Assembly (NCBI GenBank): GCA_004431415.1
Contig: QPMI01000701.1
Span: 3,474 to 67,473, forward strand
Direction of reading: 5' to 3'
Source of the DNA: Cyanophora paradoxa CCMP329
Taxonomy: Eukaryota; Plantae; Glaucophyta
DNA length: 64,000 nt
Shown: in pieces, positions 9,169 to 58,084 of the stretch
How positions within the stretch are numbered: the stretch's first letter is position 1
How the letters are laid out: each line of letters begins with the position of its first letter
Translations under genes and position numbers: made by a program
Notes under the pieces: generated by a model
Databases searched by the model: none
The model's input: only the letters and a program-made list of their open reading frames with translations
What the model was told of the DNA's origin: nothing

Positions 9169-10916
9169 TCACTTCTTCCCCTTCTTCTTCTTCTTCTTTT
9201 TCGCTCCCGGCGCCGTCGCCGCCCCGGCCCCCGGGCCCTCAGGCTCGCCGGCCGCCGGCAGGGACGCCTGTGGCGCCGAAACCGGCGCCGCCGCCGAGGC
9301 GGGGGCCGCGGTGGCCCCGGCGCGGGGCGCTGCGGATTCGGGTTCGGGGGCCCCGATACGCGGCGCCCCTCGCCGCCGCATGCGCTCCCGTCGGAGGCTA
9401 CGGCGGCGGCGGCCGGCGGCTCCGGGAGGGGGGCGAGGAGGGGCGGGGAGGAGTGCTGGGGGGGCGAGGCGGCCTGGGGCGGGGAGGAGGGGGCGGCGGA
9501 GGGGACGGGGGAGCGGCGGTCGTAGGTGGAGGCGTACCCCCCCGCGGAGGAGGCCTCCCAGCGCTCGCGGGACATCGACTCGACGGCGTCCGTCAGCGTC
9601 CGGATGTGCTCGTTCATCACCGACTGCCCGCCGCGCCCCCCGTGGGCCGGCGCGGGGGCGAGGGGCGGGGGCGAGGGCAGGGGCGCACGAGCTGGGCGAA
9701 GCAGGCGCTGCGCATGCCGTCGATGGCCGCCAGCTGCGCCGCCTCGCCACCCTCCGCGCTCCGCAGCCTGCGCCCCGTGAGCACACGCGCCGCCGGGGCT
9801 CGGGGGTCGCAAGGCGCGCACCGGGCGAGGAGCTCGGCGCGCTCGACGCGGGCGGCGGCGAGGGCCTGCTCGGCCTCCTGCGTCCGAAATACCTGCTTCT
9901 GGGCCTCCACCAGCGCCCCTTTCAGCTCCCGCCGCAGCGCCGCGGCCTCCGACTCCGCCTCGTGCGCGCGGCCCCGGGCCTGCGACTCGGCCAGCCGCGC
10001 CTGCGCCACTGCGCGCCCCGCCCCGCCGCCCTCGAGCCGGGCGGGGCAGGCGGGGCGGGGCGGGGCGGGGGGCGGGCGGACTTCGCTGGGAGGCGAGGGA
10101 GGCCTCCTCCTTGGCGCGCTCGGCCTCGGCGCGGGCCGAGGCGAGCGCCGCCTCCAGCTCCACCACCCGCCCCTGCAGCGCCCGCGCCTCCGCCTGCCCC
10201 CCGTCGCGCCCGCCCAAGCCGCCCCGCCGGGGCTTGGGGGCGGGGGGACCTCGGCCTGCTCGGCGGCGGCGATGGCGCCGTGCACGCGCCGCTCGGCGAC
10301 GAGGGCGGCCTCCTGCAGCCCCCGCTCCTGCCCCCGCCCCGCTCGCCCGGCCCCGCCCCAGCCCCAGCCCGCCCCGCCACGCGCACCCGTTCGGACAGCT
10401 CCGCCGGAGGCTCCGTCCGCGCCTTCACGCCGGGCGCCATGCGCTCCAGCAGCTGTGCCTGCGCGCCCGGCGCGTTGGCGAGCAGCGGCCGGGGGGCGCG
10501 CCCAGCGCTTCCTGGGCGCACCCGCAGCGTCTTAACCTCATTCTTGAGCGAGTCGATCGCTTTCAGGTCGACCTCCGGGGCAGGAAGGGCCACCGGCCGC
10601 GGCCGCTGCGCGGCGTCGGCTCACCGAGCAGCGGGCTAGGGCCCACTCGGCGGGGCGCGGCCTTCGACGGGCTAGCGTTCGATCGAGCATAGGCGCTCAC
10701 CGGGGTGACGAGCGGGCTCGCCGGCCGGTCAATGACAGGATGGGGACTCGAAACGGCCTCGGGATCCGCGGGGGCCGGCTCCAGGGCTGCTCGCGCGCAA
10801 CTCAGTTGGGCGCGAGCATATCGGAGCGAGCGATCGAGCGCGCACGGGGCATCGATATTTCGTCCCTGCACGACGAGCTCCCCGGATCGTTCAGGGGCTG
10901 CTGCACTAGGAAACAT
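9169..10916 (-). CDS. Hypothetical coiled-coil protein with polybasic C-terminus
   Basis: Exons DLKAIDSLKNEVKTLR, LQGRVVELEAALASARAEAERAKEE, AAALRRELKGALVEAQKQ and SVMNEHIRTLTDAVESMSRE; ends AKKKKKKKGKK*. Confidence 0.55.
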
Positions 10917-11047
10917 GAGAACAGGCTGCTAGATGGCAGCCAGCTCATTTTGAGCGCGGCTTGGCCGCTGCGCGCCGTAACGCGCGGTAGCCCCCTTCAC
11001 TTTCTCCCGGGTCCTTTTTTCTGGTTCCCGCTCTTAGCTGGCTTCAA

Positions 11048-13403
11048 ATGGCGTTTGTAGCGGGCGCTCCGGCGTGGCCAGGGGCTTGTAGATCAACCGG
11101 TGAATCAGCTGTCCGCCGTGCGACGCGCCTCCGCTGATGCCCGCGGCAGGCAGCGCGACTGCTTCCTGCAGCATCCTGCCAGTCGAACGTGACGCCCCGA
11201 TGCGCGGCAAGCGGTCAGAGAGCACTCGCAGGGCGCGTTTCGTGGCGGTCGATCATCGCGTCGCGCGGATCTTCTTCGGCCGCTCCCTCGCCGAGGCGAA
11301 GCCGCGTCCCTCGGCTGCCCCCGTCGCGTCACGGCCGGCCGAGATCGCCGGTGAGTCCGGCGCCGGGCCGCGTGCGGTCCCCGTGTCGAGCCCGTTCGAA
11401 GCAGCGTCGGGCGCGGGCCCGTCGTCGGTGGCCTTCTCGGAGCCGACGCTCGGGGGCGTGAAGCTGGTACCGGGCGAGACGGTGCTGCACTTCATCGGCA
11501 TCGGCGGCATCGGCATGAGCGCCATCGCCGAGATCCTCACCCGCTTCGGGCGCGCCTGCCTCCCGCCCGGGCCCCGCGCCCCTCCCCGCGGCGGAGCTGA
11601 CGCGGGGCGGGGCAGGTACAAGGTGCGGGGCAGCGACGCGGCGGAGGGGGCGAACCCGAAGCGGCTGCGGGAGCTGGGGTGCGAGGTGGAGGTGGGGCAG
11701 CGGGCGGAGAACATCACGGGGGACGTCGCCGTCGTCGTCATCTCCTCCGCCATCAAGGACGGGAACCCCGAGGCGAGCCCGCCCGCCCACGCCCCCGCCC
11801 CCGCCCCGGCACGCCTCACGCGGCGGCCCGGCAGCTCGAGGAGGCGCGGCGGCGGGGCCTGCCCGTCGTGCACCGCGCCGACGCCCTCGCCGCCGTCATG
11901 CAGGCCGGCCCCGCCCGCCCCCGGCCCCTCCCCCTCTTCGAAGGCGCTGGGCTGACGGGGGCTGGGGCGCAGGTGTGCGCGGACCCGGCGAGGGGCGGGG
12001 CGGTGGCGGTGGGGGGCACGCACGGGAAGACGACGACGACGTCGCTGATGGCCGCCCTGCTCGAGGCCGCCGGCGCCGAGCCGACCGTCGTCAACGGCGG
12101 CATCATCAACGCCTACAAGTCCAACGCCAAGGCCCGCCCCGCCCCGCCCCGCCCCGCCCCGCGGGCGGCTGGGCGGGGCTGACGCGGGGGCAGGTGGGGC
12201 GGGGGGAGTGGGTGGTGGTGGAGGCGGACGAGTCGGACGGGACGTTCACGCGGCTGCCGGCGTCGGTGTGCGTGGTCACCAACATGGACCCGGAGCACAT
12301 GGAGCACTACCTCTCGTTCGACAACGTGCGGGCCGCCTTCGGGCGCTTCGTGCGGCAGGCCCTCGCCGCCCCCAACGGGCGCGGCCTCGCCCTCCTCTGC
12401 TCCGACCACCCCGAGGTCGCCCGCCTCGCCGACGAGTGCAGCGCCGCCGCCACCGGCCGCGTCCGCCCTCCCCCCGCCCCCCCCCGCCCCGCCCCGGCGG
12501 CGCCTCGGGCGCGGTGCGCTGAGGCGGGGCAGGTGGTGACGTACGGGTTCAAGGATGGGGCGGAGGTGCGGGCGACGAACGTCCGCTTCACCCCCGACGG
12601 CGAGGCCTTCTTCGACGTCACCGCCCCGCGTCCGCCCCGCCCCGCCCCGCCCCGCCCGCCCCCTCCCGCCTCACTCCTCGGGGCGGGGCGGGCGGGGCGC
12701 AGGGGCGCGGATGGCGGGGCTGCGGCTGCGGGCGGTGGGGGAGCACAACGTGCAGAACGCCCTCTCGGCGGTGGCGCTCGCCCTGGAGCTCGGCATCCCC
12801 GAGGCGGCCCTGCGCGCCGCCCTCGCCGGCTTCGAGGGCGTCCAGCGCCGCTTCACCCTCGCCGGCCGCGTCCGCGGCGTCACGATCATCGACGACTACG
12901 GGCACCACCCCGTCGAGATCGCCGCCGTCCTCCGCGCCGCCCGCGCCGCCGTCAGCGCGGGGGCACCGGGGGCGCGGGTGGTTGCAGTGCACCAGCCGCA
13001 CCGCTACACGCGCCTCTCGGACCTCTTCCACGAGTTCGCCGCCTGCTTCGCCGACGCCGACGCCCTGCTCCTGAGCCCCGTCTACCCCGCCGGCGAGGCC
13101 CCCATCCCCGTCCGCCCCGCCCGCCTCGCGCCCCGCCCCCTCGGGCGCGCGTTGACGCGGGGCAGGGGGCGACGCACGAGGCGCTGGCGGCGGCGGTGGA
13201 GGCGTCGTGCGCGGGGCCGGGGTCGGGGCGGGGCGGGTGGTGGGGACGATCGGGGCCCGGAGGAGCTGGCGGGGGCGCTGGACGCGTTGGAGCTGCGCGA
13301 GGGCGACCTCGTCGTCTGCCTCGGCGCCGGCTCCATCTCCGCCTGGGCCCGCGCCCTCCCCGCCCAGCTCTCCGCCCTCTGGGACGTGCCCCCCGCCCAG
13401 TGA
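11048..13403 (+). CDS. murC: Plastid-targeted UDP-N-acetylmuramate--L-alanine ligase
   Basis: Transit peptide starting MAFV with an FFG motif. [25 protein letters not shown]-loop, [60 protein letters not shown]. About 10 short introns. Confidence 0.95.
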
Positions 13404-14352
13404 CCCGCCCCGCCAGCGACACCACAGGCCCCGCGCCCCTGCCCCGGCCCCCGCCCGCCCCTCCCGCCTCCCCGGGCCCCGCCCCCGCGTCCCGCCCGAC
13501 CCCTTCCGCGGGCCTCTCTTCATGCCTTGAGACCGCGAGCGCCACCCTCAGTGTCAGGCAAACCCTCCCCAGAACCTTAATCTTTGGATATGGCGATATG
13601 TGTGTCGAACTTCGGAATGAATCTGCTAGCGCCGCCCCGTACGCGTGGCTGGCGTCGAGCTTCTGTGCCACGTTGTGCACCGGTACCCGGTGACCGTCAC
13701 GGCGTGGCGGGGGACTCGGCGTCCGGTCTCAAGCCGCTGATCATGGGCTCGCCGAGTCGAGGCTACGAAGCCTCGCCAGGCCCTGAGGCTCGGGCCGGCG
13801 CCTCGGACCGGGCCGACTCAGTGAGTGGCCATTGGGCGTCTGAGGTCTACCGTAGTACGGCCCGTGGCGGCCCAGCGTCGCTCGAGCGCTAGCAGCCCGG
13901 CAGCCTGGCACTGCGGCAGACTGGCATTTGATCATGATCATGCCATCGACTCAGCGATCATCATGGCATGTCATCATGGCATGTCATGATGATGATCACT
14001 GCAGCTGACTCGTGAGTCGTAATCATGAGAATTCGAAGCCTTCGGGTTTCATGTTCAGGGCTTCGAATTCAAACTTCCAAAGTTCAAGCCTTGAAGGCTC
14101 CGAGGCTCAGCGGCTTGAAGCTCGGAAGGCTTCTCCGAGCTTGAGGTTCCCGTCAATTCGGACTCTCAGAGTCTCGGCGTCAGCGAGGGGACTGGTTCCG
14201 AGTTCGAGGTAAATTCGACGCCGCGACATGCATTATGTATAATTACTAAAGTTACATTAACTAGTGGATTGGATATCGGGGTACAGCGATGGCGATGATG
14301 CGGGCAGACAATCGGGCCGATGTGCACAAGGGGGAGAGGAGGAGGGGAGGGG

Positions 14353-14353
<1 letters not shown>

Positions 14354-14386
<33 letters not shown>
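14354..14386. repeat. Poly-G homopolymer (~33 nt)
   Basis: Run of G visible directly; it lies in the 3' region of the LCIB-like gene. Confidence 0.85.
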
Positions 14387-14438
14387 CGGGTGCGGCGGGG
14401 CGGGGGCGGCGGGGGCCGGGGCGCGGGGCGCGACGAGG

Positions 14439-15943
14439 TCAGAGGTCGTGGCGGGCGCCGGCGACGACGGCGTAGGCGAGCATGGGGTACACGAGGTCGA
14501 CGCTGTGCGGCCCGTGCACCTCCACCCCCGTCAGCACCGCGTAGTCGCACGCCCCCCGCCCCCCGCCGTCGACGCCGCGATCAGGTGCTCCAGCAGCTCG
14601 CCCTGGGCCTCGGCGGCGGCGCGGGTGATCTCGTCGAGGGCGGGGCGGGGGCGCCGGGGGGCGGGGCCCGAGGCGCTCGAAGACGAGCTGGGCGAGCAGC
14701 GACTCCTCGACGTCCTCGAGGTCCAGCGCCGGCCGCTCCTGGCCCCGCCCCGCCCCGCCTCGGTGCCCCGCCCCGACGCCCACGCGCCGCGGGCGCGCAC
14801 GTTCATGAGGCCCTGCGCGTAGCGGGCCTGGATGGCGCAGAGGGCGCCGCAGGCGTGCGAGGGGCGGCAGCGGCCGGCGCGGGTGCAGGCGCCCACGGTG
14901 CCGTCCTCGCCCACCGCGACGTGCAGGAACGCGAAGAAGACGTACCGCTCCCGCCCGTCCCCCGCCTGCGCCCCGCCCCCGCCCCTCAGCCACCGTCGGG
15001 GGGCGAGTGGAGGGCGGGGGGCGGGGGGGCGGGCCAGCGGGGAGTGCCCCTCGGCGGCGGCGAAGGCGGTGATGCCGCCGGAGAGCAGCCCGCCGATGCC
15101 CGCGAGGCCCGACAGGTCGAACTGCAAACGCCCACGCCTCACCCCCCGCGCCCCAGGGAGGCCCGCCCCCGGGGGCCGCGGCGGGGAGGGCGCACGGCGC
15201 CGGCCCCGCCGGGGGTTGTCCACGCCTCCTCGATCTTGCGGAAGAGGGGCTGGCAGAGCTCGTCGCGGCACAGGCAGATCACGGGTATGGACGTCTGCGA
15301 GGCCCGTCGGGCGAGGCGCCGGCGCAGGGCGGGGCGCGGCGTGCAGGGCGCGGGGCGGGCGGACCTGCCTGCAGAATCCGAAGGGGGCGAGCCGACGGAC
15401 CGAGTTGCGCACAAACTCGTCGCGGGTCACGCAGCCGGGGTACAGCTCCCTCACGCGCTCCTCAAACGCCCTGCTTGCACCCCGGCTCGCTCCCAGGGGG
15501 CGGGGGGCGGGGGGCGGGGGGGCAGGGGGCGGGGAGTGGGCGGCGCGCGCGCACGGGATCGTGAGCAACTGGGGGCGAACGACAGAGAGCAGATGCTGGA
15601 TGGGATTCGAACTGAAGGCTCTCTTGACGGCGCGCACCGCCGCCTCCCGCGCCTGCCCCGGCAGCTGCTCGCGCCGCTCCGGCGGAATAGCCACGCAGGC
15701 GCACGATAACTCGATCAGCGGCGCCTGGGGTCGAAGCACGGCTTCCTGGGTCCCAGCGAAGAAAGCTCTCCGTCCGCCTCGGTGCTCTAGCGAGTTCGAT
15801 GCCCTGTCCGGGGAGTGGCGGCCCGGTCGCATGTGCTGCGTACGCGTACACGCTGCGCTAGTCGTGTCTGATGCACGCTGCGCTAGCGCTGAAGAGCTCC
15901 ATTGCGGCGCGCTGCAGCTACAGCTCGCTGAAAAGGCTTCCAT
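14439..15943 (-). CDS. LCIB: LCIB/LCIC-family (theta-type carbonic anhydrase) protein, paralogue 1, predicted stromal
   Basis: Transit-like N-terminus (MEAFSAS..RRAFFAG). LYPG..F, ICLCRDE, FDLSGLAG, AAEGHSP, RYVFFAFLHVAVGEDG, SHACGAL, DYAVLTGVEVHGP; Cys/His/Cys metal ligands are intact. Confidence 0.9.
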
Positions 15944-16998: not shown

Positions 16999-19878
16999 AT
17001 GGCGGCGATCGCGGGTTGCCCGTACGCCTTCTCTTCGTGGGACCAGGTCCGAACCGCACTCGCTCGCGCCCGCCTGCGCGCTGGGCGCCCCGGCCCGCGC
17101 GCGATGGCCACCGACCGATCTGCGTCGCGTGCACGTGCGCAGGGGCTCTTCGAATTCTTCACGGGGCGCGGCAGCCGCGCGAAGAAGGGGCCGGCGCGGC
17201 CGTGCGTGCGCGCCGGCGTCGTGAGGAGGAAGCGCGCGCGCTCGACGACCTCGCAGCCCTACCCGCCCTCGGCCCTCTGCGCGTGCGCATGCGGCTGCCC
17301 CTCCGACCCTCCTCCCTCCCCGGCCCAGCCGCCGACGCCGCGGAAGGTCGCCGGCAGGGTACCGGTGCGGGGAGGGGGCGGGCGGGCGCGGGGCCCGGGC
17401 GGCGCTGCCGGAGCTGCCCGACGAGCTGCTGGCGGAGATCGTCGGGCGCCTCGCGCTGCGCGACCTCGCCGCCCTCGCCGCCACCTGCCGCCCTCTCCGC
17501 GCGGCCGCCGCCGCCGCCCTGCCCCTCGTCCGCGTCCTCGACCTCTCCGCCTGGGCCCCCGGCCACGAGGTCCGCCCTCCCCCGTCGCGATGGCGAGCCG
17601 GCGCCCCTCCCCTCGCGCGAGGGTACCGGTGCGAGCGCCGGTCTCCCCGGGCAGAAGCTGGCGGGGCTGCTGGGGCGCGCTGCGGGGGCGCGCGAGGTGC
17701 GGGTGGACTGCTGGAACGTGTACCGCGACGCCTGGCTCGCCCGCCTGCCCCGCCCCCTCGAGCGCCTCGAGCTCCGCAACGCCAACTTCCTCAGCCCCGC
17801 CGGCTGCGCCCTCGTCGCCGCCGCCGCCACGCCCCTCCGCGCCCTCGTCGTCACCACCTCCTACCGCCACGACCTCGGGGAGGCCCAGTACCAGGTCTCT
17901 CCTCCAGCTCGAGCTTCGATTCCCTCAGCTGTGCGGGGGAGTGACCACGAGGGGTGCGCGGGGCGGCAGGACCTCGGGCTCGGGGTGGTGCTGCGCGCGG
18001 CGGCCTCGACGCTGGAGGAGCTCTGCCTGGACGTCCCCGACGAGCGCGGGGCGCTCCGCTGGGACCTCGCCCCCCTGCGCCTGCCCCGCCTCCGCCGCCT
18101 GGCGCTGCGCTCGGCGGCCCCCGTGGACCTCCTCCAGCGCCTCCCCGCCACCCTCCGCTCCCTCTCCGTCTCCGCCGCCGCCTCCCCCCTCTGCGTCCTC
18201 GGTGCCCCGCCCCCGCCCCCGCCCCTCCCCGCCCATCTGACCCGGGGGCAGGGGACGGGTACGTGGAGGCGGTGTGCGCGGCGTGCCCGCAGCTGGAGGA
18301 GCTGGAGCTGGGGGGGATGGCGTGGGCGGGGCGGGGGGCGCCGGCGGGGGGCCTCGCGGGGCTCGCGGCGCTCGTCGGGCCGCCCCCGCTCGCCCTCGTC
18401 TCCGACCGCTCCTTCGCCGCCCTCGCCGTCCGCCCCGCACCCCGTCGCGCGTCATCGCAGCTCATCTCACGCGGCGTGGCGGGCAGCGGCTGCGCTCGCT
18501 GCGGGTGCTGCGGCTGGAGCTGGTGGAGGGCGGGTGGCCCTCGTCGGCGTCGGACGCCGGCGTCGCGCTGCTCGCCGCCTCGTCCCGCTCCCTCGTGCGC
18601 CTCGGCCTCTGCGGGATGCGCGGCGTGGGGGACGCGGCCCTGCTCGCCCTCGCCGCCTCGTGCGGGGCGAGCCTCGAGGAGCTGGACCTCTCGCGCACCG
18701 CCGCCTCGGACGCCGGCCTCGCCGCCCTCGCCCGCGCCTGCCCCCGCCTCGCCCGCCTCGCCCTCTCGTGCGGCCCCCACCCCGCCGCCCCCGCCCCCCG
18801 AGCCCCCGTCTTAGCCCGCGCCCGCAGGCAGTGCGAGCGGGTGAGGGACGGGGCGTGGGGCGGGTGGCAGCCCTCGCGGGCCCCGGGTGCGCCCCGGCGC
18901 CCCTCCCCGCGGTCGCCCGCTCAGCCGCGGCGCGCGCAGCTGGAGTCGCTCGAGCTCTTCGGCTGCGGCGGGGTCGGCGACGCGGCCCTCTGCGCCCTCG
19001 CGACGCACTGCACCCGCCTGCGCCTGCTCGACGCCCGCGGCTGCGCCGCCACCGACCTCGGCGTCGCCATGTCCGCCCCCTCCCGCCTCGGCCCCCGCCC
19101 GCTGGCGCCACGGCTCACGGGGCGGGGCGCGCAGGCTGCTCGCCTCGCCGGCGGCGGGCACGCTGGAGGTCCTCCGTCTCGGCAAGGCCTACAGCAGGCA
19201 GGCCCAGGCCAAGGCCGTCTTCCCGCCCCCCGCCCGCTGGCCCCCCGGACCCCGCGAGGAGGGCCCGCGCCCCTTCCCCCCGGCCTTGCCCTCCGTCGTG
19301 GTGGTGCCGGGGGGGACGTACCCCCCGGGGCTGCCCCTCACGGACGCCTCGCTGGCGCTGATGGCGGCCCCGGGCCGCTGCGCGCGCCTGCGCGAGCTCG
19401 TCCTCGTCGACGCCGCCGTCACCGACTGGTTCCTCGAGCGCGCCGCCCGCTCCCTCGGCGCCCTACAGATCCTCCAACTCGTCGTCCGCCCCCGCCCCCG
19501 CCCCCTCCCGCACGCCTCGCCTCACGCCCCCCGCAGAAGTGCGAGCGGGTGACGGGGGCGGCGCTGCGGCTGCTGGCGGCGGGGGCGACGCGGGGGTCGC
19601 TGCGGGAGGTGCACCTGCGGGACAGCGGGGCGCGCGTCGGGCGGCGCGAGGTGGAGGCCCTGCGGGGCATGCGCGCCCTGCGGCAGGCCCTGCTGCCCTG
19701 CCGCGAGACCACCGCCATCCCCGCCCTCCACGCCTCCAACCGCCTCCTCGACGTCTGCTTCTACTCCCTGCCCCCGCCCCTGCCCCTCCTCCCGCCCCTC
19801 CCCCGCGCCCCCTCCGCCTGGCGCCGCCCCGCGGCCGGCCCCTCCTCCCCGCTCCCGCCCCGCCCCTTCTCCGCTTGA
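16999..19878 (+). CDS. F-box/leucine-rich-repeat (RNI-like) protein
   Basis: F-box LPELPDELLAEIVGRLALRDLAALAATCRPLR. Cys-containing LRRs such as LVRLGLCGMRGVGDAALLALAASC, LEELDLSRTAASDAGLAALARACP and LESLELFGCGGVGDAALCALATHC. Confidence 0.85.
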
Positions 19879-20589
19879 GCCGAGCAGGTGCCGCCGCGAG
19901 CGGCCCCACGGGCCGTTGCGCGCTGCCCTACGGCAGCTTCAGAGCCTGGCCCCGCTGTTAACGATGCCGCATATACATGCATATGCCTTTTTCCTTGCAA
20001 TTGTCTGTATTTTTGTGGACCGGACCGCTCTCTAGTTTCAAGTTTCTTATTTCCGAGTTCGGGCCCCGGGGCCGCCTCCGCCGCCGCTGATAACGAGTTC
20101 TTCGAGTTCAGCGATCGGCGTGTATAACTAGTACTATAATTTCATCCTAGTCGCGCGTACGTTTCTGCTGGGTTCCACGGATCGCAAGGCCAGCCATAGC
20201 TAGAGCTAGTAAGCATATATAGGAAGCATTGCACGCTAGACCTGCTTCGTAGATTGTACACGTTGATATCTGCATCACGCTTCTCATATCGCTATCATAG
20301 TATACGTATCCTCATACCGTCGCGTACTGACTCAATACTGAGTTACCGATCGGCGAGAGATGCGATGCGCGATGGCCCAGCGCTAGCCGCGGCCTCGCTG
20401 GCCATGGGGCGGGGAAGGTCGAATGATCGACACGAGCGGCGAGCCCTTCGGAGTGGCGCTGGCCCATCGGATCAGCCTGGCAGCCTGGCAGCCGCTGAGC
20501 GCTTCGGCGCGGGGGGCGGGGGCAGACGGCTCGGGGCGGCGGGGGCCGGCTTGGTGCCTCACGAGCGGTGAGTGGCCGGGAGCAGGAAG

Positions 20590-22955
20590 TCAGGCGGCGG
20601 CCTCGCGGCGGGCGTCGCGGAGGAGGGCGCAGGCGGCGGCGAGGGAGGGGGACGCGGGCTGCACCAGCGCCAGGCCCCGCGCCGCCTCCTCCAGCGGCCC
20701 CACCGCCCCCGCCGCCTCCCCCGCGTTCCACCGCAGCTTCCCCAGCATGAACAGCTGCAGCAGCAGCAGCGGGTGCAGCGCCGGGTACAGCTCTGCCGTG
20801 TCGAGGTCTTAGGGGGTGCAGCGCGGGGTAGGGAGCGGGGGGTGGGGGTAAAGCGCGGGGAGGGGGAGGGGTAAGCGGCTGAAAGACCTCGGTAGGCGTC
20901 GACGGTGCGGGCGCAGTGGTGCGCGGCCGCGCGCCAGTCGCCGGCGTCGATGCAGAGCTGCCGGCGGGGGCGCCTCGGATAGATGCGATGCAACGGTCGC
21001 GCAATCCTAGGGGCGGGGGGCGGGCCTGCATGAGGGCGGCGTGGGAGGACCAGCGGTCGACGTCGCACGGGTCGAGCCCCGCCGCCTCCGCCCCCCGCAC
21101 CGCCGCCTCCAGCCCCGCCCGAGCCGCCCCTCGTGCCCCCCGCCCCGTCAAGGAGCCGCCGCCGCGCAGCGCGCGCGCAGAGCAGCTCAGAGGCGGAGGC
21201 GGCGGGGGTAAAGGATATTCTCCTCCGCGGAGACCCCCGGCCTGGCGAGGGCGTCGGCCCGCTTGCGCGCCGCCTCGACCGCCGCCCGCGCCCTGGCCAC
21301 GGCCTACCCCCGGGCGGGGTTGGCGGGGCCGGGGCGGGGCGGGGCCGGGGGCGGGGCGGGGGCGCCTCGGGGCCTCGGCGGAGCGCTCGGCGGAGACGAG
21401 GCGCCCGTCGGCGGCCCCCGCCTGCGCCCGCCCCGCCCCGCCCCGCCCCCGTCAGCCGCCCCAGGCCGGCGGCGGCGGGGCGCAGAGGCCAGCGCGGCGG
21501 GGCGCACGGGGTCGGCGGCGCAGCGCGGGCAGGCGCAGTCGAAGTGGTAGCGCGCGCGCAGGTCGGCCCGCCGCCGCTCCCGCGGCAGGCCGGCGTCGAC
21601 GTACGAGTGCGTGAGCTGCGGCGGGGGCGCGGATCGGAGGCGGGCGGGGAGTCGGGGGGGGGAGGGGGGGGGGGGGGGAGGGGGGGGGGGCTGGGGACCT
21701 CGGCGCCCGCGGGGAGGTCCCTGAGGGCGCGGACGAGCTGGCGGCGGCCCTCGTAGAGCACCGCGCAGCTCGGCTCGCAGCTGCCCCCGGCCCCCGCCCG
21801 CCCCTCTCAGCGCCCCCCCGCACCGCACCCGCCGCCCGGGGGCGCTCGGAGGGGGCGGGCCTGTGGTTCAGGAGGGCGCCGGCGGGGAAGACAGCGGCGC
21901 CGACGGGGAAGAGCTGGTCGTCCTGCACCGTGAAGTTGTTGCCCCCGAACTGCGCGAGCGCCCCCCGGCGAGGCCGAGGCCCGGCGCCGGCTTTCAGCCG
22001 CCGGCGGGCGGGAGGAGGCGAGGCGGGCCGCACGATGCAGAGGAGCTCGACGGGGTCCACGCCCGGCGCCCCCGCGCCCCGAGCAGCGCCGCCGCCTCCT
22101 CCGCCGCCGCCCCGTGCCTGCCCCGCCCCGCCCCCGCCCCTCTTCAGCGCTTCGACGCGGACGCCGGCCCAGGCCGGCGCGGAGCCGGGGGCGCACCTCG
22201 CGAGCGCCTCGGAGCCCTGTTGCTCCCGATCTGCGCGGAGGGGACGCGCGCCGGCGCTCCGTCAGGGGGACGGCGGCGGCGGAGGCGCGCGCGGGGAGGG
22301 CGGGGGGCGGGCGCGAGGGCGGACGGGAAGGGAGAGCGATGAGGGATTCGAAAGAGTCCCACGCAGAGGCTGCCGGCTGCGCGGCACGCACGCGTCAGCC
22401 GAGGCCCTGCAGCTGAGCTCGCCAAGCCCGCGCTGCCACGCATCCGGCGCGCCGCGCTGGAGGAGGGTGCGGGAAGGGAACACACGCACCGCGCCCGCCA
22501 GCTCGCGTAATCGCCGCCGGATGGTGCGGGCGAGGAGGACGGCCTCGGGCGAGGGCGGCGGTTTCCTCGCCGCGATCGCCGAGCACTCAGGCTTGTGCTC
22601 CGCCCAATGCTTCCGCTGGTCGAATATATCATCCATCAAATACTACACTCCGAGAAATTCGTACCTGACAGTCGCGCGAGCAGTACCACACAAACTTGCA
22701 GGCGCTTATCGGGCGCGCGTACGCATTAGGCGCGCGTGCGGGCGGCTGAAGCGCACGCGCGCGCTCGAACCTGCACTGAAGGTCGCACTCGCCGCGGAGG
22801 CAAGTGCTGCACACTTTAGGCGCCGGCAGATCGGCGTACGGCATTGTCGAGAACACTAGGTCGCCAGCGCGAAGCGCTCGCCGAGCAACCACCGCGCGCC
22901 CTTTGTCGTTGTGCACGACGGACGCGCTGTCCGATAGGGGGCCGGGGGCAGCCAT
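20590..22955 (-). CDS. SET and MYND domain lysine methyltransferase (SMYD family)
   Basis: KGRAVVARRALRAGDLV; MYND finger CSTC..CKFVWYCSRDCQ|RKHWAEHKPEC; LLNH|SCEPSC; RALRDLPAGAE|LTHSY; YHFDCACPRC; helical C-terminus YPALHPLLLLQLFMLGKL. Confidence 0.9.
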
Positions 22956-26446: not shown

Positions 26447-28280
26447 ATGGCCTCGTTCGTGAGCAGCACAGGTTCGTCACGTCGTAACAACACTTTGGGC
26501 GGTGTTGCACGCCCGTGCCAGAGTTGATTGGTTTGGCGCCAGGCTCGCTTCCGGCTTCTGCTAGCCGGCCGGTCGTTGCCTCGGCTTCTTGCACTCCGGC
26601 TGGACGCACGGCTGTCGGGCTGGCCAAGCGCTCCGCCTTCACTGGTTCCCGCGTACATGCCAGTGGCTCGGCCAGCTTTATCGCCCGCCCCGTTCGCTCG
26701 ACAGTCGCCTCTCCGGCCGTCCGTCGCTCTTTTGATGTGACGGAAAGCTCGCCGCTGGTCCTCGCCTCGGCCGGTGAGTCGAGTGCGCGCGCGCGTAACG
26801 CTGGGCCGCCGCGACTCAACGGTCCCCTCCCTGCGCCGGGCGGGCCGCCGCAGACGGAAAATCGATCGTCATCGCGGGCGGTGGCACTGGCGGGCACGTG
26901 CTGCCGGCGCTGGCCATGGCGGACGCGTTCAAGAAGGCGCTGGGCCCGTCGACGGAGATCCTCTTCGTGGGGACGGAGCGCGGCATCGAGAAGACGCTCG
27001 TGCCGAAGCGGAACTACGAGATCGAGCTCATCCCGGGCGCCCCGATCGTCACCGGCGGCTCCATCTTCACCCGCCTCGCCAAGCTCTTCGCCGGCCTCTT
27101 CGCCCTCGTGCCCGCCCCGCGTCCCGCCCGCCCTCCGCCGAGCCCAGCCGGGGCCGCGCAGATCGCGGGGGTGATCGCGGCGTACAAGCTGCTGAAGAAG
27201 CGGAAGCCGAACCTGGTGCTGGGCGTCGGGGGCTACGCCTCGGCGGCGGCGGTGATCGCGGCGAAGATCCTGGGCATCCGCACGGCCCTGCACGAGTCGA
27301 ACGCGGTGCCGGGCCTCACGAACAAGCTCCTCGGCTCCGCCGTCGACCGCGTCTACGTCGGCTTCGACGCCGCAAAGGGCGCCTTCCCCGCCGCCAAGAC
27401 CGTCGTCACGGGCAACCCCGTGCGGCCCGAGATCGCCGCCACGTGGGAGGTCCGGCGCAAGGCCATGGAGGAGCAGGGCGCCAAGGCGCGGCTCCCGGCG
27501 CACGTGCTGGTGGTGGGGGGCTCGCAGGGGAGCCAGTTCCTGAATGAGCGCGTCCCCGCCCTCGTCGAGAAGGTCAAGCTCGGCATCCGCTACCGCGCCG
27601 CCCGCCGCGGCCACCTCCTCCCCGTCCGCCCCGCCCCCCCGCCCCCGCCACCGCGCCCCGCCGACGGAGCGGGGCGGGCAGGACCCGATCGTGAAGGTGC
27701 TGCACCAGGCCGGCCGGCGCGAGGGCGAGGCCGCCGCCACCGCCGCCGCCTACGCCGCCATCCCCTCCGGGCCCGCCCCGCCCCCGCCCGCCGCTCCCTC
27801 GCGCCCCCCCCGCCGGGCTGAGGGGGCGGGGCAGGGTGGAGGCGGAGGTGCGGGAGTTCGTGGACGACATGGACGCGAAGTACACGTGGGCGGACGTCGT
27901 CGTCTCCCGCTCGGGCGCCTCGACCATCTCCGAGCTCGCCGCCGCCGGCGTCCCCTCCTTCCTCGTCCCCTACCCCGCCGCCGCCGGCGACCACCAGGCC
28001 CTCAACGCCGCCTGGCTCTCCGACAAGGGCGCCGCCTCCTGGATGCGCCAGGGCTCCTGGGACGACGACGAGGCCGCCGAGCGGTGCCCCCCCCGCCCCC
28101 GCGCCGCCCCGCCCCGCCCGGGCTGAGGTGCGGGGCGCGGGGCAGGCTGGTGGAGATGCTGTACGGGAGCGCGGGGACGCGGGAGAAGCTGGTGGCGGTG
28201 GCGGAGGCGGCGCACGCGGTGGCGCACGAGGACGGCGCCGCCGCCGTCGTCCGCGACGCCGCCGCCCTCCTCGCCCCTGA
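26447..28280 (+). CDS. murG: Plastid-targeted undecaprenyl-PP-MurNAc-pentapeptide GlcNAc transferase
   Basis: Transit peptide starting MASFV. IAGGGTGGHVLPALA, GTERGIE, GVGGYAS, HESNAVPGLTNKLL, TGNPVR, VGGSQGS, HQAG, FVDDMDAKYTWADVVVSRSGAST, DHQALNA. The stop is uncertain: TGA at 28278 is one base out of frame (probable homopolymer error); otherwise the frame runs to 28812. Confidence 0.95.
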
Positions 28281-28856: not shown

Positions 28857-31800
28857 ATGTTCCGAGACGTTTTTGACAGCTTGTACGCGTAATCGATCGA
28901 GCTGGTAGTCAGGCAGCAGCGTACGCGTCGCCGTGCATAAGAATTAGCGTCTCGGCCATGGTGATCTTCGGCGACCACGCTGAGGAGCAATATGGGCATT
29001 GCTTGCCCATGGAAGGGCACATCAAAACCTTCCTCAGTGCGTCCTACGGTCTCCGCCTTATCTTCGGTCAAGCTTGCGAACGAACCGGCCCTTTTAACGA
29101 CTCTTAGTCGCGCTCCCCGCTTCCTCGCGCCAACTGGTCCCCCGCTCTGTCCGTCTGATCGGTTTGTGCAGTCTGGTCGGATCTTGTCATCGCGATCAGC
29201 TACGCGTGGATCCCTGTGATGCTGGCCCTCTTCCTCCGCAAGCGCTGGATCGACTTGTGCGGGCCGCCCCCTCGCCGGCGCCGCGCCGTGCCGAGGCGGC
29301 TCGCGCAGCCACCTGCGGACGCGCAGCATCATCGCGCTCTTCGTGGCCTTCATCATGGCCTGCGGCTCCACGCACCTCGTCTCGGTCTTCATCGTGCGCG
29401 CCCCGCCGCCCCGCCCTGCTGCCAGGGGAAGAAGGGCGACGGGGGCGGGGCGGGGCGGCGGCGGCAGATGACGCACGGGCAGACGGCGGATATAATGCGG
29501 CTCTCGGCGGCGCTCAAGTTCATCACGGCCGTCGTGAGCGCGGCCACGGCGGCCTTGATGTTCTGGGTGCGCCTCGCTCTCCACCCGCCCTCCCGCCCCC
29601 GGCCGGCCCGTGACGCCCCCCGAGGTGATGCCGGCCGTGCTGCACATCCCAATCGAGCTCGAGCGCGAGAAGGTGCGAGCCGCGCCGCCCGCCTCGGGGG
29701 CCCGGCCTCCCGCCGCCTCGAGCGGGGGCGGCAGCTGCACCGGGCGGAGCTGGAGCGGGAGATCACGAGCCGGCGGGCGGCGGAGGGGGCGCTGCAGAAG
29801 CAGGTGAAGCACGCGGCGGTGCTGCGGCACATCACCGACGGCGTCCGCTCCTCCCTCGACGCCTCCCGCATCTTCGACGTCGCCGCCACCGAGGCCCGCC
29901 CCCTCTCCCGCCCCGCCCCCCCTCCCCGCCCCTGCTCTTGACCCGCCGGGCAGATCGGGCGGGCCTTCGGGGCGGACATGTGCGCCATCTGGGTCTGCGG
30001 CGGGGCGGCCGGGGTGGACCCCGAGGCGGGGGGGACCCCCGCCCCCACGCCGCCCTCGTCGGCCGCCGCCCTCGGGGCGGCCCCGGCGCGCGCTCCGGGG
30101 CCACCCCTCCGCTGCGTCGCCGTCTTCAACGGCACCGTCACCCGCCCCGGCACGCCCTCTGACGGCCCCAGCGCCGCCCGCCGCTCCTACACCGCCCGCC
30201 CTTCGTCCCCCGCCCCGCCTCCGTCCCCTCTCTCCTCTCCGCCGGGACCCCGGCCGGCGCCCGGAGCCTCAGCATCTCGGCGGCGGCGAACCGGCTGGCG
30301 GCGGGGCTGCGCGTGGAGGCGGCAGGCCCGCCCGGCGGCATCGGCCTCTCCGAGGGCGGCTTCCGGCGCGTGGGCGCCCTCCGCGGCTACGCGCCCCTGG
30401 CGAGCGGCGAGGAGGAGGCCGGGGCCGGCCCCGCGCCGCTGAACGCGGGGGCGGCGGGGGAGGTGGAGGGGGCGGGGGGTCGACGCGGAGCGGGTCGGGG
30501 TGGGTGGAGGAGAGGGAGGGTGCGGGGGAGGCGGCGGGCCCGCGGCTGCTGCTGCCGGGGGCCCGCGTCGAGGAGTTCCCCTCATCCGCCGCGCCCTCGC
30601 CTCGGACGCCATCCTCCAGGCCCGCCCCCCGCGCCCCCCGCCCCGCCCCGCCCCGCCCACCCCCCGCCCCCGCCCCGCAGGTGCCCGACGTGCGGCAGGA
30701 CCCCGACCACGCCTGCTACGCCTTCTTCGAGGTCCCCGCCCCCGCGCCTCCCTGCCCCCCGGCCCCCCTGGAGCGGGCGGGGCGTGGCGCAGGAGATGCG
30801 GGCGGGGAGCGCGTTCGTGGTGCGGACGAGCTTCGCGGGGGAGGCGAACGGGGTGATCTTCCTGGCGCGCCGCGGGCCCTCGCCGCGCCTCGCCGGCGAC
30901 GAGGCCGAGCTCCTCGCCGCCGTCGCCAAGCAGGTCGGCATCGCCTCGAGCAGGGTGCGCCCCCGCCCCGCCGCCCCCCGCGCCGCCGGCCTCGGCGCGC
31001 CGCCGGGGCCGACGGGGGCGGGGCGCAGCGCGGATGCTGGCGAAGGAGCGGCGGGTGAACGCGGCGCTGGAGCGCGCCCGGGCCGCCGCCGAGGAGGTGC
31101 CGCCCCCCGCCCCCGCCCCTCACTCACTTTCATTGAGATCCTTCAACTCTATGCTCAATTTCTGCAGACAAACAGCGCCAAGTCCCGCTTCATCGGTCCG
31201 CCTGCCCCCCGCCCCGCCGCCCCGGCCCCCTCCCTCCCACCCCGCCGCCCCTCACGCGAGCCGGCGCCCCCGCGGGGAAAAAAAAGCTTCAATGTCGCAC
31301 GAGATCAGGACGCCGCTGAACGCGGTGATCGGGTTCACGTCGGTGCTGCTGCAGTACGGCGAGTCCGGCAGCGCCGCCTACCGCCTCAGCCCCGAGCAGG
31401 CCGACATGCTCGAGACGTCCGCCCCGCCCCGCCCCGCCCTGCCCCGCCCCACGCGCCAGGCCCGCAGGGGGCTGAGTGGGCGGGCGGCAGGATCCGGAGC
31501 TCGGGGGAGACGCTCCTGACGGTCATCAACGGTGCGCACGCCGGCCCCGCCCCTGCTCTCCTCGCTAACTGCGACCGCAGACATCCTGGTCCGCACGCCG
31601 GCGGGGGGGCGGGGCCGGGGCCCTCGTCCCCGCGGGCGTGCTCAGGAGGGGCCTGGGCGGGGCGCAGGACTTCTCGAAGCTGGAGGCGCGGCGGGTGGAG
31701 TTCGAGGAGCGCGCCTTCTCCCTCCCCACCATCATCGAGGAGTGCCTCGAGATCATCGTGCGCACAGCCGCCCGCCCCCTGCGCGATGGCGCCCGCGTAG

Positions 31801-44185: not shown

Positions 44186-45670
44186 TTACGCGAGGGTCTT
44201 CTTCTCGCCGTTGACGACGGCGTAGGCGCCGGTGGGGAAGATGTAGTCCGAGCCGCCGGGGCCGTGGATCTGGATGCCGGTGAAGACGGCGTAGTCGCAG
44301 TTCTTGCCCTTGGTCGACTTCTCGATGTAGCCCTGGAGGTACTCGGCCTGGGCCTCGGCGGCGGCCTGGGTGATCTCGGGGAGGCTCTTCTCGCCGCCGG
44401 CGCCGAGCTTGTCGAAGACGAGCTGGGCGAGGAGCGACTCCTCGAGGTCGCCGAAGTCAACCTCGGGGCGCTTGTCCATCTTGCCGTTCTTGTACCGGCC
44501 CTGGATCGCCACCAGCGCGCCGCACGCGTTGGACGGCGCAGCCCGGCCCACGCGGTTGCACGCCCCGATCGTCCCGTCCTCGCCGATGGCGATGTGCGGC
44601 GCCGCAATGAACACTGCGCGAGGCGGCTCAGCGACGCCGGCGGCTGCGAGGAGGGGCGCGCCAGGGGCACTGCGCACCGTACTTCTCCTTCTTGTCATCG
44701 CCGGTCTGGGGGGAGTGCGCCTCCGCCGCGCCGAACGCCGTCACACCCGCCGAAAGCATGCCGCCCATGCCCGCCAGGCCGGAGAGGTCGAACTGACCAG
44801 GGCGGAGAGTCAGCGCACAGTGCAGAGAGGCGCGGCGAGGGCACAGCGGGGCAGGCTCACCGCGCCGACGGCACCCTGGGCCCACGCGCCCTCGATCTTG
44901 CGGAAGAGGGGCTGGCAGAGCTCATCGCGGCACAGGCAGATGGCGGGGATGACGTTCTGCAGGGGGTAAGGGCCGGAACGGGGCGGGGCGGGGCGAGCGA
45001 GGGGCAGGGGCACCTTGCCGTTGAAGCCGAGGGGGTTCAGCTTCTTCTGGGTCTCCTTGATGAACGCCTCGCCGGTCACCGCGCCGGGGTAGAGCGCCTC
45101 GAGCTGCTCAGTGAAGGCCTTGGTCGCGGTGGCGGCGCTGCGCGGCGGGGCCGATCAGCGGGGAAGGCCGGCGCCAGGGCGGGGCGGGGCGGGGCGCACG
45201 CGAAGGCGGGCTTGGTCTTGACGGAGAGGAGGGCCTGGAGGGAGACGGCGGCCGCGGCGCCCATGACGGTACGGCGGCTGGTGGTCATCTTCTTCTCCTC
45301 GGCGACGGGCTGCGCGCGCCGGCCATCATTAGCCATCGGTCCAGCAGCGAGGCGACGCGAGGCGAGGCTAGGACCGTCCGCTAGGCTCTAGCAAGGCTAC
45401 GAGAGCAACGTACGCGCTCGCCTACGTGCGCGCGCGGTCGGCGGGGCGGCGAACCTTCTCGGCGGAGGCGGAGACCGAGAAGGAGGTGGAGGGGGCGGCG
45501 CGGGCGGCCTTCTTGGCGACGGCATCGCCGAAGAACGCCTTGTTCTGGACGCGCGCGGCGCAGCCGCAGGCCGGGCCATGGCCGCAGGGGGCCTTCACGC
45601 AGACGGCCGAGGCGGTGCTGACGGCCTGGCTGGCGCCGACGACGGGGGCGACGGTGGCGAACGCGTTCAT
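44186..45670 (-). CDS. LCIB: LCIB/LCIC-family (theta-type carbonic anhydrase) protein, paralogue 2, with bipartite transit + Tat signal
   Basis: MNAF.. transit peptide with KAFFG, then TSRRTVMGAAAAVSLQALLSVKTKPAFA. Catalytic domain ICLCRDE, FDLSGLAG, AEAHSP, PHIAIGEDG, SNACGAL, DYAVFTGIQIHGP. Confidence 0.92.
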
Positions 45671-49247: not shown

Positions 49248-49398
49248 TCTGCGTGAAGGCCCCCTGCGGCCACGGCCCGGCCTGCAGCTGCGCCGCGCGC
49301 GTCCAGAACAAGGCGTTCTTCGGCGATGCCGTCGCCAAGAAGGCCGCCCGCGCCGCCCCCTCCACCTCCTTCTCGGTCTTCGCCTCCGCCGAGAAGGT

Positions 49399-49402
<4 letters not shown>
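49248..49402 (+). pseudogene. Inverted near-identical copy of the transit-peptide exon of LCIB paralogue 2
   Basis: Matches the reverse complement of ~45445-45603 (CVKAPCGHGPAC..FFGDAVAKK..SAEK|gt) with about 4 substitutions; followed by a (CCG)11 run. Confidence 0.85.
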
Positions 49403-55178: not shown

Positions 55179-55936
55179 TCATTGACCATGGCACCGTACG
55201 CTTGGCACCCGTTGACCGGGACCCTGCAGCTGGTGTAAGGAATTCGAACTCAGGAACTGATTTGAAAAACTTTTTTGGGGTTCAACGGTTATGCGCACTG
55301 CGGCATGCGTGATCATGACCGTCGGACAATTCAAGTGGCTTCATGATCAAGGCTTGGGGCCGGGCACCACTGGACGAAGTTGGAGCGCTGGCACTGCCGC
55401 AGTGCGCATGCGGCACTGCAGCAGTACTCGTGCGCCCAAGACTCTCACTGAGTCAGGCTCTCAGAGTCTGCTGCTGAGACCGTCGGACTCTGAGACTCTG
55501 AGTTTTCAAGTTTCACGAGTCCGACCGTAGGACGGTCATGATCACTGAGTCATGCCATGATGGCTTATATATGAGGGCCATCAATGGGCCAAACGCGAAA
55601 AGTCAACTCCGAGAGCTCGAGACTCGGAAGTGACGCTTGGATTGCGGAGGTTCTTATAACCGCCGCAACAGCTGTGGGGGTACCCCTTCCGAGGCTGGCG
55701 ATCGCGGCGATCACGAGCCGATCGCGACCCTGGCGATCGCGATTTTCTCCCGATCGCGACCCTTTTCGATCGCGATTTCGAGATCGGGGGCATTTCTGCG
55801 ATCGCGAGAAAGGAAAAATCGGAAAAGGCCGAAAAGTGCGTTTTTCACGCGTGAAATCGACCCAAAACGAGGGTTCGAATCCCGGGGCCGGATTTGGACT
55901 TGGGTAAAATCTCGAGTCAAAATGGGAGAAAAATGC

Positions 55937-56008
55937 GACTTGGGACTTGGGACTTGGGACTTGGGACTTGGGACTTGGGACTTGGGACTTGGGACTTGGG
56001 ACTTGGGA
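55937..56008 (+). repeat. (GGGACTT)10 tandem array; a shorter copy lies at 58029-58053
   Basis: Perfect heptamer array visible directly. Confidence 0.95.
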
Positions 56009-56065
56009 AGAGTCGGAGTCAGAGTCTGGACTCAAAAGCGGGGAAATTTTCGGAAGGGGAGAAAA

Positions 56066-56484
56066 ATGGCAGACGAGCCCTATTACGATTTCCCCTTTGA
56101 GTTGAATATGGCATTCGAGAGGTTGCGCGAGTTCTGGCGTTGGCACATCACAGGACATGACATCCCCGGAATAAGACCAGTGCCCAACACACAGGGCGTC
56201 CTCGAAATTGTCCGTCAATATCCGCGTCGATTCAATGAATGGATTGAGTTCCACGCGACGAACCGTTTCCAAAGTCTCCCGAGGCCATACGCGAAAATTT
56301 CGTGAGGCTGGTGGGGCCAGGCTACGACAACCCTAACAATCATCGACACGTACCACATGAAGACAGGGCTATTGTTCGACGGGGACGGCGCATGAGACAT
56401 CGCAGGGAGGCACGGGACGAGCGGACAGCCCTTCGCACCGGGGTAGGGCTCATCGAGAGGGAGGGGTACAGCCCCGGGATGTAG
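56066..56484 (+). CDS. Orphan ORF A of the insertion (one apparent frameshift near 56295)
   Basis: MADEPYYDFPFELNMAFERLREFWRWH... continues in another frame as VRLVGPGYDNPNNHRH...EGYSPGM*. Confidence 0.45.
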
Positions 56485-57954: not shown

Positions 57955-58084
57955 ATAGTATTGCGTCATTCCATTGTACATACTTGTAAAAATTGGCCGA
58001 CTATTTCAGTTACGACTTGGCGCGATCCTGGGACTTGGACTTGGGACTTGGGAATTTCTTGATGTGTGCAATTGCAAATGTCGA

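What the first reader, a model, noticed from the sequence alone, without database searches (positions are those of the whole stretch)
11550..13403. Splice-site-locked G/C skew oscillation that overrides synonymous codon choice
Seen throughout gene bodies on both strands; murC is the example. Introns begin C-rich (gcccgccccgcccc), pass a CTGAC/CTGAG/CTCAC branch-like motif and end G-rich (ggggcag). Exons do the reverse: exon 12194-12460 starts with G-ending codons (gtg ggg cgg ggg gag tgg gtg gtg gtg gag gcg) and ends with C-ending codons (gtc gcc cgc ctc gcc gac..gcc gcc gcc acc ggc cgc). So donors sit in C-rich peaks, acceptors sit in G-rich peaks, and there is no polypyrimidine tract. Long exons keep oscillating. 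Inference: an unusual splicing code (C/G pairing folds introns into hairpins that juxtapose splice sites) and/or a nucleosome-phased mutational pattern with introns placed in register.
Basis: partly seen in the sequence, partly recalled or inferred. Interest (0 to 1): 0.75.

Follow-up and report, generated by a model that had tools for sequence, protein, structure and literature searches.

The report
Exon-scale G-to-C waves recode algal genes
In this alga, likely Cyanophora paradoxa, most exons start with G-ending codons and finish with C-ending codons, so strongly that even amino acids shift; the wave likely marks nucleosomes sitting on exons rather than RNA hairpins that close introns.

Summary
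The window is likely Cyanophora paradoxa. In 12 exons with RNA-contig support, the G share at fourfold G/C sites falls 0.78, 0.58, 0.40, 0.26, 0.16 by fifths (0 of 10,000 permutations). In 58 modelled exons it falls 0.79 to 0.13. MurC amino-acid changes follow it (p=0.0009). Corrections: 95 of 120 introns start C-rich, but only 67 end G-rich and 49 end C-rich. An intron's two ends pair no better than ends from different introns, while the two flanks of an exon do co-vary. The C peak also sits at stop codons (11 of 12), resets inside 3 of 5 long exons, and is weak near gene starts, where introns still splice. The unit is therefore exon-centred and probably DNA-level, like a much amplified yeast nucleosomal signature. 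No fixed period or long-range phase was found, so this stays inferred. GC-AG introns are common (5 of 13 RNA-supported). Ten literature searches found no description. The scan noted intron-linked exon skew in another eukaryote (e1-7131326, e1-7131333).

The parts
11048..13403 (+). [quoted passage not shown]
   Evidence: RNA joints; spliced frame open for 547 codons up to 13251; Mur ligase Pfam hit; one exon 100% identical to EukProt P0001
11100..11149 (+). Intron 1, GT-AG (GTGAAT donor), without C/G blocks, yet spliced
   Evidence: joint; sequence
11351..11401 (+). Intron 2, GT-AG (GTGAGT donor), without C/G blocks, yet spliced
   Evidence: joint
11550..11615 (+). GC-AG intron, C-rich start, CTGAC branch-like motif, G-rich end
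11616..11772 (+). Exon; fourfold G share 0.90 in first third, 0.18 in last
11773..11834 (+). GC-AG intron, CTCAC branch-like motif, mixed end
11835..11903 (+). 69-nt exon; G share 1.0 to 0.0
11904..11972 (+). GC-AG intron; kept as coding sequence in the public model P0001
11973..12131 (+). Exon; G share 0.83 to 0.11
12132..12193 (+). GC-AG intron starting with CCCCG repeats
   Evidence: record offsets
12194..12460 (+).
   Evidence: both ends RNA-supported
12461..12532 (+). GT-AG intron (GTCCGC donor, CTGAG branch-like motif)
12533..12629 (+). Exon; G share 1.0 to 0.0
12630..12702 (+). GT-AG intron
   Evidence: record offsets
12703..13109 (+). 407-nt exon with an internal G block about 90-180 nt before the donor and no acceptor there (G 2/21, 11/22, 2/14 going towards the donor)
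   Evidence: unbroken RNA piece 12706-13109
13110..13165 (+). GT-AG intron
13166..13510 (+). Last exon (G-rich, then C-rich) and C-rich start of the 3' UTR; the C peak lies at the stop codon with no donor
14439..15832 (-). LCIB-type carbonic anhydrase gene with the same pattern on the other strand; 4 RNA-supported introns (14739-14800, 14966-15034 GC-AG, 15122-15195, 15295-15364)
44186..45670 (-). Paralogous LCIB-type gene with a partly different intron layout; third-position G/C at aligned codons follows each paralog's own introns
   Evidence: one pair, read by eye
19135..19483 (+). 349-nt exon with an internal G block (2/13, 17/26, 0/12)
   Evidence: unbroken RNA piece
27162..27623 (+). 462-nt exon of a GT28 (murG-like) gene with an internal G block (1/21, 12/19, 0/14); modelled only

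Best explanation
Exons in this genome carry a mirror-image wave, G-rich in the first half and C-rich in the second half and for about 40 bases beyond, which is likely the footprint of gene-body nucleosomes that sit on exons with introns as linkers. Shown: the wave's shape, its anchoring at both exon ends (decay about 50 nt), its effect on synonymous and amino-acid choice, and its presence at stop codons and inside some long exons. Inferred: in a genome where third positions are about 95-98% G or C, the only freedom left is G versus C. A bias mirrored about the nucleosome centre (in substitution or repair, or selection for positioning) would push the 5' half of each strand to G and the 3' half to C. 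The nucleosomes would take their places from the intron layout, not from a fixed ruler. Predicted intron-closing hairpins are then a by-product, which may help splicing secondarily.
For: (1) C peak without a donor: skew -0.41 in the 20 nt after stop codons; 11 of 12 stops are C-rich within 40 nt either side (12 of 24 model genes, picked by eye). (2) G block without an acceptor in 3 of 5 informative long exons, two of them unbroken in RNA contigs; interior blocks are non-random (z 14.5 at lags under 30 nt). (3) Covariation is across exons (rho -0.48, n=58; -0.39 for 42 exons of 62 nt or more), not across introns. (4) The skew runs on across splice sites: rho 0.57 at donors, 0.40 at acceptors. 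(5) It is weak near gene starts (p=0.0007; G/C homotrimer density p=3e-8), yet murC introns 1 and 2 splice without it. (6) Exons of 50 nt or less mostly lack their own flip; the upstream intron then ends C-rich (-0.26 vs +0.17, p=0.01). (7) The autocorrelation trough at 100-120 nt is deeper than in shuffled intron-plus-exon units (z -3.7); median intron spacing is 169 nt. (8) Precedent: mirrored base profiles about nucleosome dyads shape codons and amino acids in yeasts (PMC4422121, passages).
Against: No nucleosome map was available. The gradient scales with exon length from under 65 to 230 nt, and fixed-period cosines fit far worse than two anchored decays (log-likelihood -861 at best vs -818). 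There is no positive residual peak at 200 or 400 nt, and donor-to-donor spacings show no clear steps. Internal exons range from 8 to 462 nt. Intron ends are not exact mirrors (-0.34 vs +0.10). The cross-exon covariation weakens to rho -0.32 (p=0.051, n=37) once short and 5'-proximal exons are dropped. Two of 5 long exons show no reset. Predicted folding favours intron-closing over exon-closing pairs (about 12 vs 6.7 bp). The amplitude seems far above the yeast signatures (my recollection of their size), and the yeast third position did not carry the signal specially.
Confidence: 0.45

Rival explanations
1. A protein-read splicing code. C-rich sequence on both sides of donors and G-rich sequence on both sides of acceptors would be enhancers, bound by poly(C)- and G-run-binding proteins, that define exons. 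They would make up for weak donors (G[T/C][C/G]CGC, many GC-AG) and the missing U-rich tract; C-rich ends of last exons would serve 3'-end formation.
For: The best-fitting model is two decays anchored at acceptor and donor. The gradient scales with exon length. Paralogs follow their own intron layout. Donors have C at +4 in 118 of 120 and C at +6 in 111 of 120, unlike the textbook GTRAGT (recalled). The two 5'-proximal murC introns that lack blocks have GTGAAT and GTGAGT donors.
Against: G blocks occur inside long exons with no acceptor. 49 of 120 introns end C-rich, and the next exon is then less G-rich, not more (0.60 vs 0.79), so nothing compensates. A graded bias in all 8 codon families looks compositional rather than motif-like.
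Confidence: 0.27
2. Intron-closing hairpins: C-rich 5' and G-rich 3' ends pair, bring the splice sites together and replace U2AF recognition, as in fish (AC)m-(GT)n introns.
For: Predicted intron-closing pairs are 10.9 vs 5.7 bp and 12.3-12.6 vs 5.0-6.3 bp. G-ending introns fold better than shuffles (z -1.1, n=54). CCCCG/GCCCC repeats lie mostly in first halves and CGGGG/GGGGC in second halves.
Against: No within-intron covariation. 39 of 120 introns are C-rich to the end and fold weakly. Total folding energy and splice-site accessibility barely change (p=0.06-0.58). It does not explain stop-codon C peaks, exon-interior resets, or G3/C3 bias 100 nt from any intron.
Confidence: 0.14
3. A transcription-coupled mutational footprint with no nucleosome role: polymerase pausing or R-loops at acceptors and donors expose opposite strands, and GC-biased fixation turns that into G or C excess.
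For: The skew builds up with distance from the gene start and follows current splice sites. Transcription-phase skews that change amino acids are known in fungi (PMC3315797, abstract and passages).
Against: It needs opposite strand biases 60-100 nt apart, and it does not explain resets inside long exons.
Confidence: 0.12
4. An artefact of gene modelling or of assembly errors in G/C runs.
For: Only 13 introns have RNA support; the model missed 2 of them and placed false ones, for example 12934-12987. RNA contigs show single extra G or C letters at several places.
Against: The RNA-supported exons alone give the same gradient. The model was blind to G versus C at third positions and inside introns. 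The annotation-free segmentation agrees.
Confidence: 0.02

Closest known systems
Nucleosomal signatures of fission and budding yeasts (Quintales et al. 2015, PMC4422121, abstract and passages; Gonzalez et al. 2016, PMC5088595, abstract and opening)
   Same: Mirrored base asymmetry in coding and non-coding DNA at a 150-200-nt scale that shifts codons and amino acids; mutation versus selection is left open there too.
   Different: There it is defined on mapped dyads and is mainly A/T, with weaker C/G asymmetry. Here it is G/C, visible in single exons, tied to splice sites and stop codons, elastic in length, and no dyad map exists.
Structure-bridged introns: fish (AC)m-(GT)n and human (GGG)m-(CCC)n (Lin et al. 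2016, PMC4691745, passages)
   Same: Complementary simple repeats at the two intron ends; predicted intron-closing helices.
   Different: Polarity is opposite to the human class (C first, G last). There the repeats co-occur across introns and not across exons; here the reverse holds. The bias here runs far into coding sequence.
Opposite GC skews at 5' and 3' gene ends in unicellular fungi (McLean and Tirosh 2011, PMC3315797, abstract and passages)
   Same: Positional G/C skew at fourfold sites that extends into UTRs and changes amino-acid use.
   Different: There it is one C-to-G change per gene. Here it is one G-to-C change per exon, gene ends are C-rich and gene starts are nearly neutral.
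Introners inserted in nucleosome linkers (Gozashti et al. 2022, PMC9860276, passages)
   Same: Precedent for algal introns lying in linkers.
   Different: The introns here form no repeat families (best pairwise normalised score at most 0.58, median 0.40, among 120).

Membership tests
Nucleosomal signature (Quintales 2015) | Mirrored profile on the two strands | tested here: met
   G share 0.75 in the first 20 nt of exons, C share 0.83 in the last 20; seen on both strands. Intron ends are less even (-0.34 vs +0.10).
Nucleosomal signature (Quintales 2015) | Present in coding and in transcribed non-coding DNA | tested here: met
   Fourfold sites, introns, start of the 3' UTR.
Nucleosomal signature (Quintales 2015) | Present in non-transcribed intergenic DNA | not tested
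   No formal test; skew maps look weak in promoter regions.
Nucleosomal signature (Quintales 2015) | Position-dependent amino-acid composition | tested here: met
   Gly/Pro 63/18 vs 46/47 (p=0.00015); Val/Leu p=0.005; 5 other pairs, Glu/Asp among them, not significant. MurC substitutions p=0.0009.
Nucleosomal signature (Quintales 2015) | Periodic along the reading frame at the nucleosome repeat | tested here: inconclusive
   Extra trough at 100-140 nt and resets in 3 of 5 long exons, but no long-range phase and a poor fit to fixed periods.
Nucleosomal signature (Quintales 2015) | Profile centred on mapped dyads | not testable with these tools
   No MNase or footprint data; membership is therefore not claimed.
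Structure-bridged introns (Lin 2016) | Complementary repeats at the 5' and 3' intron ends | tested here: met
   On average: CCCCG 167 vs 49, GGGGC 23 vs 121 in first vs second halves.
Structure-bridged introns (Lin 2016) | Repeats co-occur across introns, not across exons | tested here: not met
   Own vs chimeric ends 4717 of 5000; across exons 2 of 5000.
Structure-bridged introns (Lin 2016) | Introns more stable than shuffled controls | tested here: inconclusive
   Mean z -0.44, negative in 68 of 120; driven by G-ending introns.
Structure-bridged introns (Lin 2016) | Splicing independent of U2AF2 | not testable with these tools
   Needs experiments; no genome was held to look for U2AF or snRNAs.
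Gene-scale opposite GC skew (McLean and Tirosh 2011) | C-biased 5' end and G-biased 3' end of genes | tested here: not met
   Gene ends are C-rich; the unit is the exon.
Introner elements | Families of near-identical introns | tested here: not met

The most novel reading that the evidence does not exclude
Cyanophora writes exon positions into DNA as oriented G-then-C blocks that seat a nucleosome on each exon, and splicing reads that chromatin mark to find exons despite weak, often GC, donors and no U-rich tract. The code is held by selection strongly enough to override synonymous codon choice and steer amino-acid substitutions in enzymes gained from bacteria.
Probability: 0.2. Interest if true: 0.88.

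Novelty: new variant of a known kind. Interest (0 to 1): 0.7.

Why it matters
Codon choice here is set by a codon's position in its exon, not by the amino acid or the gene, and the effect reaches protein sequence. That makes the long-debated link between nucleosomes, exons and sequence evolution testable at single-exon resolution, in a culturable alga with genome, RNA-seq and nanopore methylation data. It can bias phylogenies and selection tests for a key Archaeplastida lineage, because intron positions imprint Val/Gly versus Leu/Pro. It also shows that a public gene model misreads GC-AG introns, and it offers a strong signal for re-annotating the genome.

Tried and rejected
No whole genome was held, so all statistics come from one 64-kb window, and U1, U6 and U2AF could not be inspected. 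No run is on record as RNA; X1, X4 and X7 are guessed RNA contigs. Laying 20 kb gave mostly chance joints; only the 4.6-kb lay was clean. Two gene-finder runs were trained in a wrong frame by my coordinate errors and were discarded (also the trial translation). 124 of 244 modelled introns were dropped before counting (weak donor or branch score, not ending in CAG, or over 100 nt); this filter favours GT donors. Fixed-period models were rejected. No long-range phase and no CpG periodicity. Exon starts pair no better with their own ends than with others (2389 of 5000). The idea that the blocks keep splice sites unpaired was not supported. A ghost of a lost intron as the cause of resets was not seen in the one paralog pair. 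A metagenome scan gave 10 hits, all read as chance matches without this gene style; viral contigs gave none. Block lengths from the segmentation are biased long and were not used as a period. My notebook says 4 of 5 long exons reset; the count is 3 of 5.

Full report
Source. Exon 12705-13109 is 100% identical to EukProt protein P0001 (tig00021795_g23524.t1). That id format matches gene ids in the Cyanophora paradoxa genome paper (PMC6704402, passages), which reports 9.2 introns per gene, a mean intron length of 86 bp, Augustus models and a murC gene; the word 'skew' does not occur in its main text. The species is therefore inferred. No whole genome was held.

Splice sites. Contigs of three guessed-RNA runs laid on 11001-15600 give 11 joints, and record offsets give 2 more. 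All 13 read as GT-AG (8) or GC-AG (5). With them murC is open for 547 codons up to 13251; there an RNA contig has one more G than the window. A contig of run X8 covers 10384-11740 unbroken, so those introns are in the DNA. The public model P0001 differs from the RNA-based frame at two GC-AG introns and at the last intron. I built a gene finder blind to G versus C at third positions and inside introns. It found 244 introns in 24 genes, including 11 of the 13 RNA-supported ones. 120 passed a motif-only filter (93 GT, 27 GC; median 66 nt). Their donors are G[T/C][C/G]CGC, with C at +4 in 118 of 120. The branch-like motif is CTGAG, CTGAC, CTCAC or CCGAC, mostly 15-31 nt before the end.

Exon gradient. 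At fourfold sites holding G or C, the G share by fifths of the exon is 0.79, 0.65, 0.47, 0.31, 0.13 in 58 modelled internal exons (45 of 54 scorable exons fall, 4 rise; 0 of 5000 within-exon permutations). In the 12 RNA-supported exons it is 0.78, 0.58, 0.40, 0.26, 0.16 (0 of 10,000; 12 of 12, one flat). All eight fourfold families flip. Amino acids follow in part: Gly/Pro is 63/18 at exon starts and 46/47 at ends (p=0.00015), Val/Leu p=0.005, and five other pairs are not significant. Against 104 of the 120 fetched homologues (those of 440-640 residues), 158 of 396 aligned MurC positions differ from the consensus. They shift to G-richer codons near acceptors (+0.63, n=37) and C-richer near donors (-0.37, n=44; p=0.0009), while the homologues themselves show no relation to this intron layout (rho 0.02). 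In two LCIB-type paralogs, aligned codons follow each gene's own introns (one pair, by eye).

Introns. With motifs masked, 95 of 120 start C-rich (mean -0.34), 67 end G-rich and 49 end C-rich (mean +0.10, bimodal). T is 9% at -20 to -5, so there is no U-rich tract, but a third of introns have a C tract. A segmentation that uses no annotation places 84 of 107 C-to-G and 11 of 111 G-to-C switches in introns.

Shape of the wave. The crossover sits near the exon midpoint in every length class up to 230 nt. Two exponential decays of about 50 nt from acceptor and donor fit best (log-likelihood -818), ahead of relative position (-835) and of the best fixed-period cosine (-861). Skew carries across donors (rho 0.57) and acceptors (rho 0.40). 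It is weak in the first 300-400 nt of genes, where two murC introns splice without it. It peaks in C just after stop codons (-0.41; 11 of 12 stops chosen by eye). Of 6 exons of 280 nt or more with a good donor, 5 are informative: 3 show C, G, C going back from the donor with the G block at least 90 nt from any acceptor, 1 is flat and 1 has no trough; two of the three are unbroken in RNA contigs. Autocorrelation has a trough near 110 nt and weak peaks near 200 and 340. Against re-ordered intron-plus-exon units only the trough is significant (z -3.7); nothing beyond 160 nt is.

Hairpin test. Introns fold slightly better than shuffles (mean z -0.44, 68 of 120 negative; G-ending -1.1, C-ending +0.3). 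In context, predicted intron-closing pairs double (10.9 vs 5.7 bp; higher in 66 of 119), local pairs fall, and total energy and splice-site accessibility do not change clearly. Exon-closing pairs are not enriched. But an intron's own ends pair no better than chimeric ends (4717 of 5000), whereas the intron ends flanking one exon do (2 of 5000; rho -0.48). Lin et al. define structure-bridged introns by the opposite pattern (PMC4691745, passages). The cross-exon signal is partly an effect of short exons; it is -0.39 without them and -0.32 (p=0.051) without 5'-proximal exons as well. I read it as a shared per-exon amplitude, not as pairing.

Mechanism. The unit is an exon-centred G-then-C block that also forms where no splice site exists and is dispensable for splicing near gene starts. 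A nucleosome-linked, dyad-mirrored bias fits this best (0.45), with precedent in yeast nucleosomal signatures (PMC4422121, passages; PMC5088595, abstract) and in linker placement of algal introns (PMC9860276, passages). Its weak point is elasticity: no fixed period was found. A protein-read exon-definition code (0.27) fits the anchoring but not the resets or the C-ending introns. Hairpins (0.14) and a transcription-coupled mutational footprint (0.12) explain less. Mutation versus selection cannot be separated here.

Novelty. Ten full-text searches of the held library found no description of this pattern, or of frequent GC-AG introns, in Cyanophora. Most subscription papers are not in the library, and no supplements were read; they may bear on GC-AG counts and on the nucleosome repeat. 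PMC10639083 (passages) mentions the species only for minor introns. PMC12695648 (passages) sequenced it for 6mA but gives no species result in the passages seen. Gene-scale skews in fungi (PMC3315797, abstract and passages) differ in scale and direction. Unchecked notes of this scan describe intron-linked exon skews in another microbial eukaryote. Verdict: a real, very strong and apparently undescribed variant of positional G/C skew; interest 0.7.

Noticed in passing
window 11550-12193 and 14966-15034: GC-AG introns are common: 5 of 13 RNA-supported, 27 of 120 filtered and 102 of 244 modelled introns. GC donors more often have exonic AG at -2/-1 (14 of 27 vs 19 of 93).
   Followed up: partly
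window 11773-11972, 13110-13251; P0001: The public MurC model differs from the RNA-based frame: it lacks 12 residues before the GC donor at 11773, keeps GC-AG intron 11904-11972 as coding, and reads through the last intron, where an RNA contig has one more G than the window.
   Followed up: yes
window, 120 filtered donors: Donor consensus G[T/C][C/G]CGC with C at +4 (118 of 120) and +6 (111 of 120) suggests altered U1 or U6 pairing; the snRNAs could not be inspected.
   Followed up: no
window 11048-13403 and 26916-28280: Two peptidoglycan genes, murC and a GT28 murG-like gene, lie 14 kb apart. The best MurC hits are bacterial (named ones mostly alphaproteobacterial) plus one eukaryotic transcriptome protein, P0014.
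   Followed up: partly
window 14439-15832 and 44186-45670; 49280-49400: Two LCIB/C-type beta carbonic anhydrase paralogs; the 5' part of the second is repeated in inverted orientation near 49280-49400.
   Followed up: partly
window 29219-34184: A large gene with about 27 introns whose translation reads like a hybrid histidine kinase with a receiver domain (recalled motifs, no database hit sought beyond one negative exon); it has 8-nt and 41-nt modelled micro-exons near 31491-31588.
   Followed up: no
window 55800-59600: A lower-GC (58-60%) stretch that seems intron-poor, with tandem GGGACTT repeats near 55920-56010 and 58030; it looks like a mobile or foreign element and lacks the exon wave.
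   Followed up: no
window 19821-20792: RNA-type contigs span the 3' ends of two convergent genes, consistent with overlapping 3' UTRs.
   Followed up: no
window 36340-36580 and 47350-47500: In-frame tandem repeats inside coding exons, with units of about 21-24 nt.
   Followed up: no
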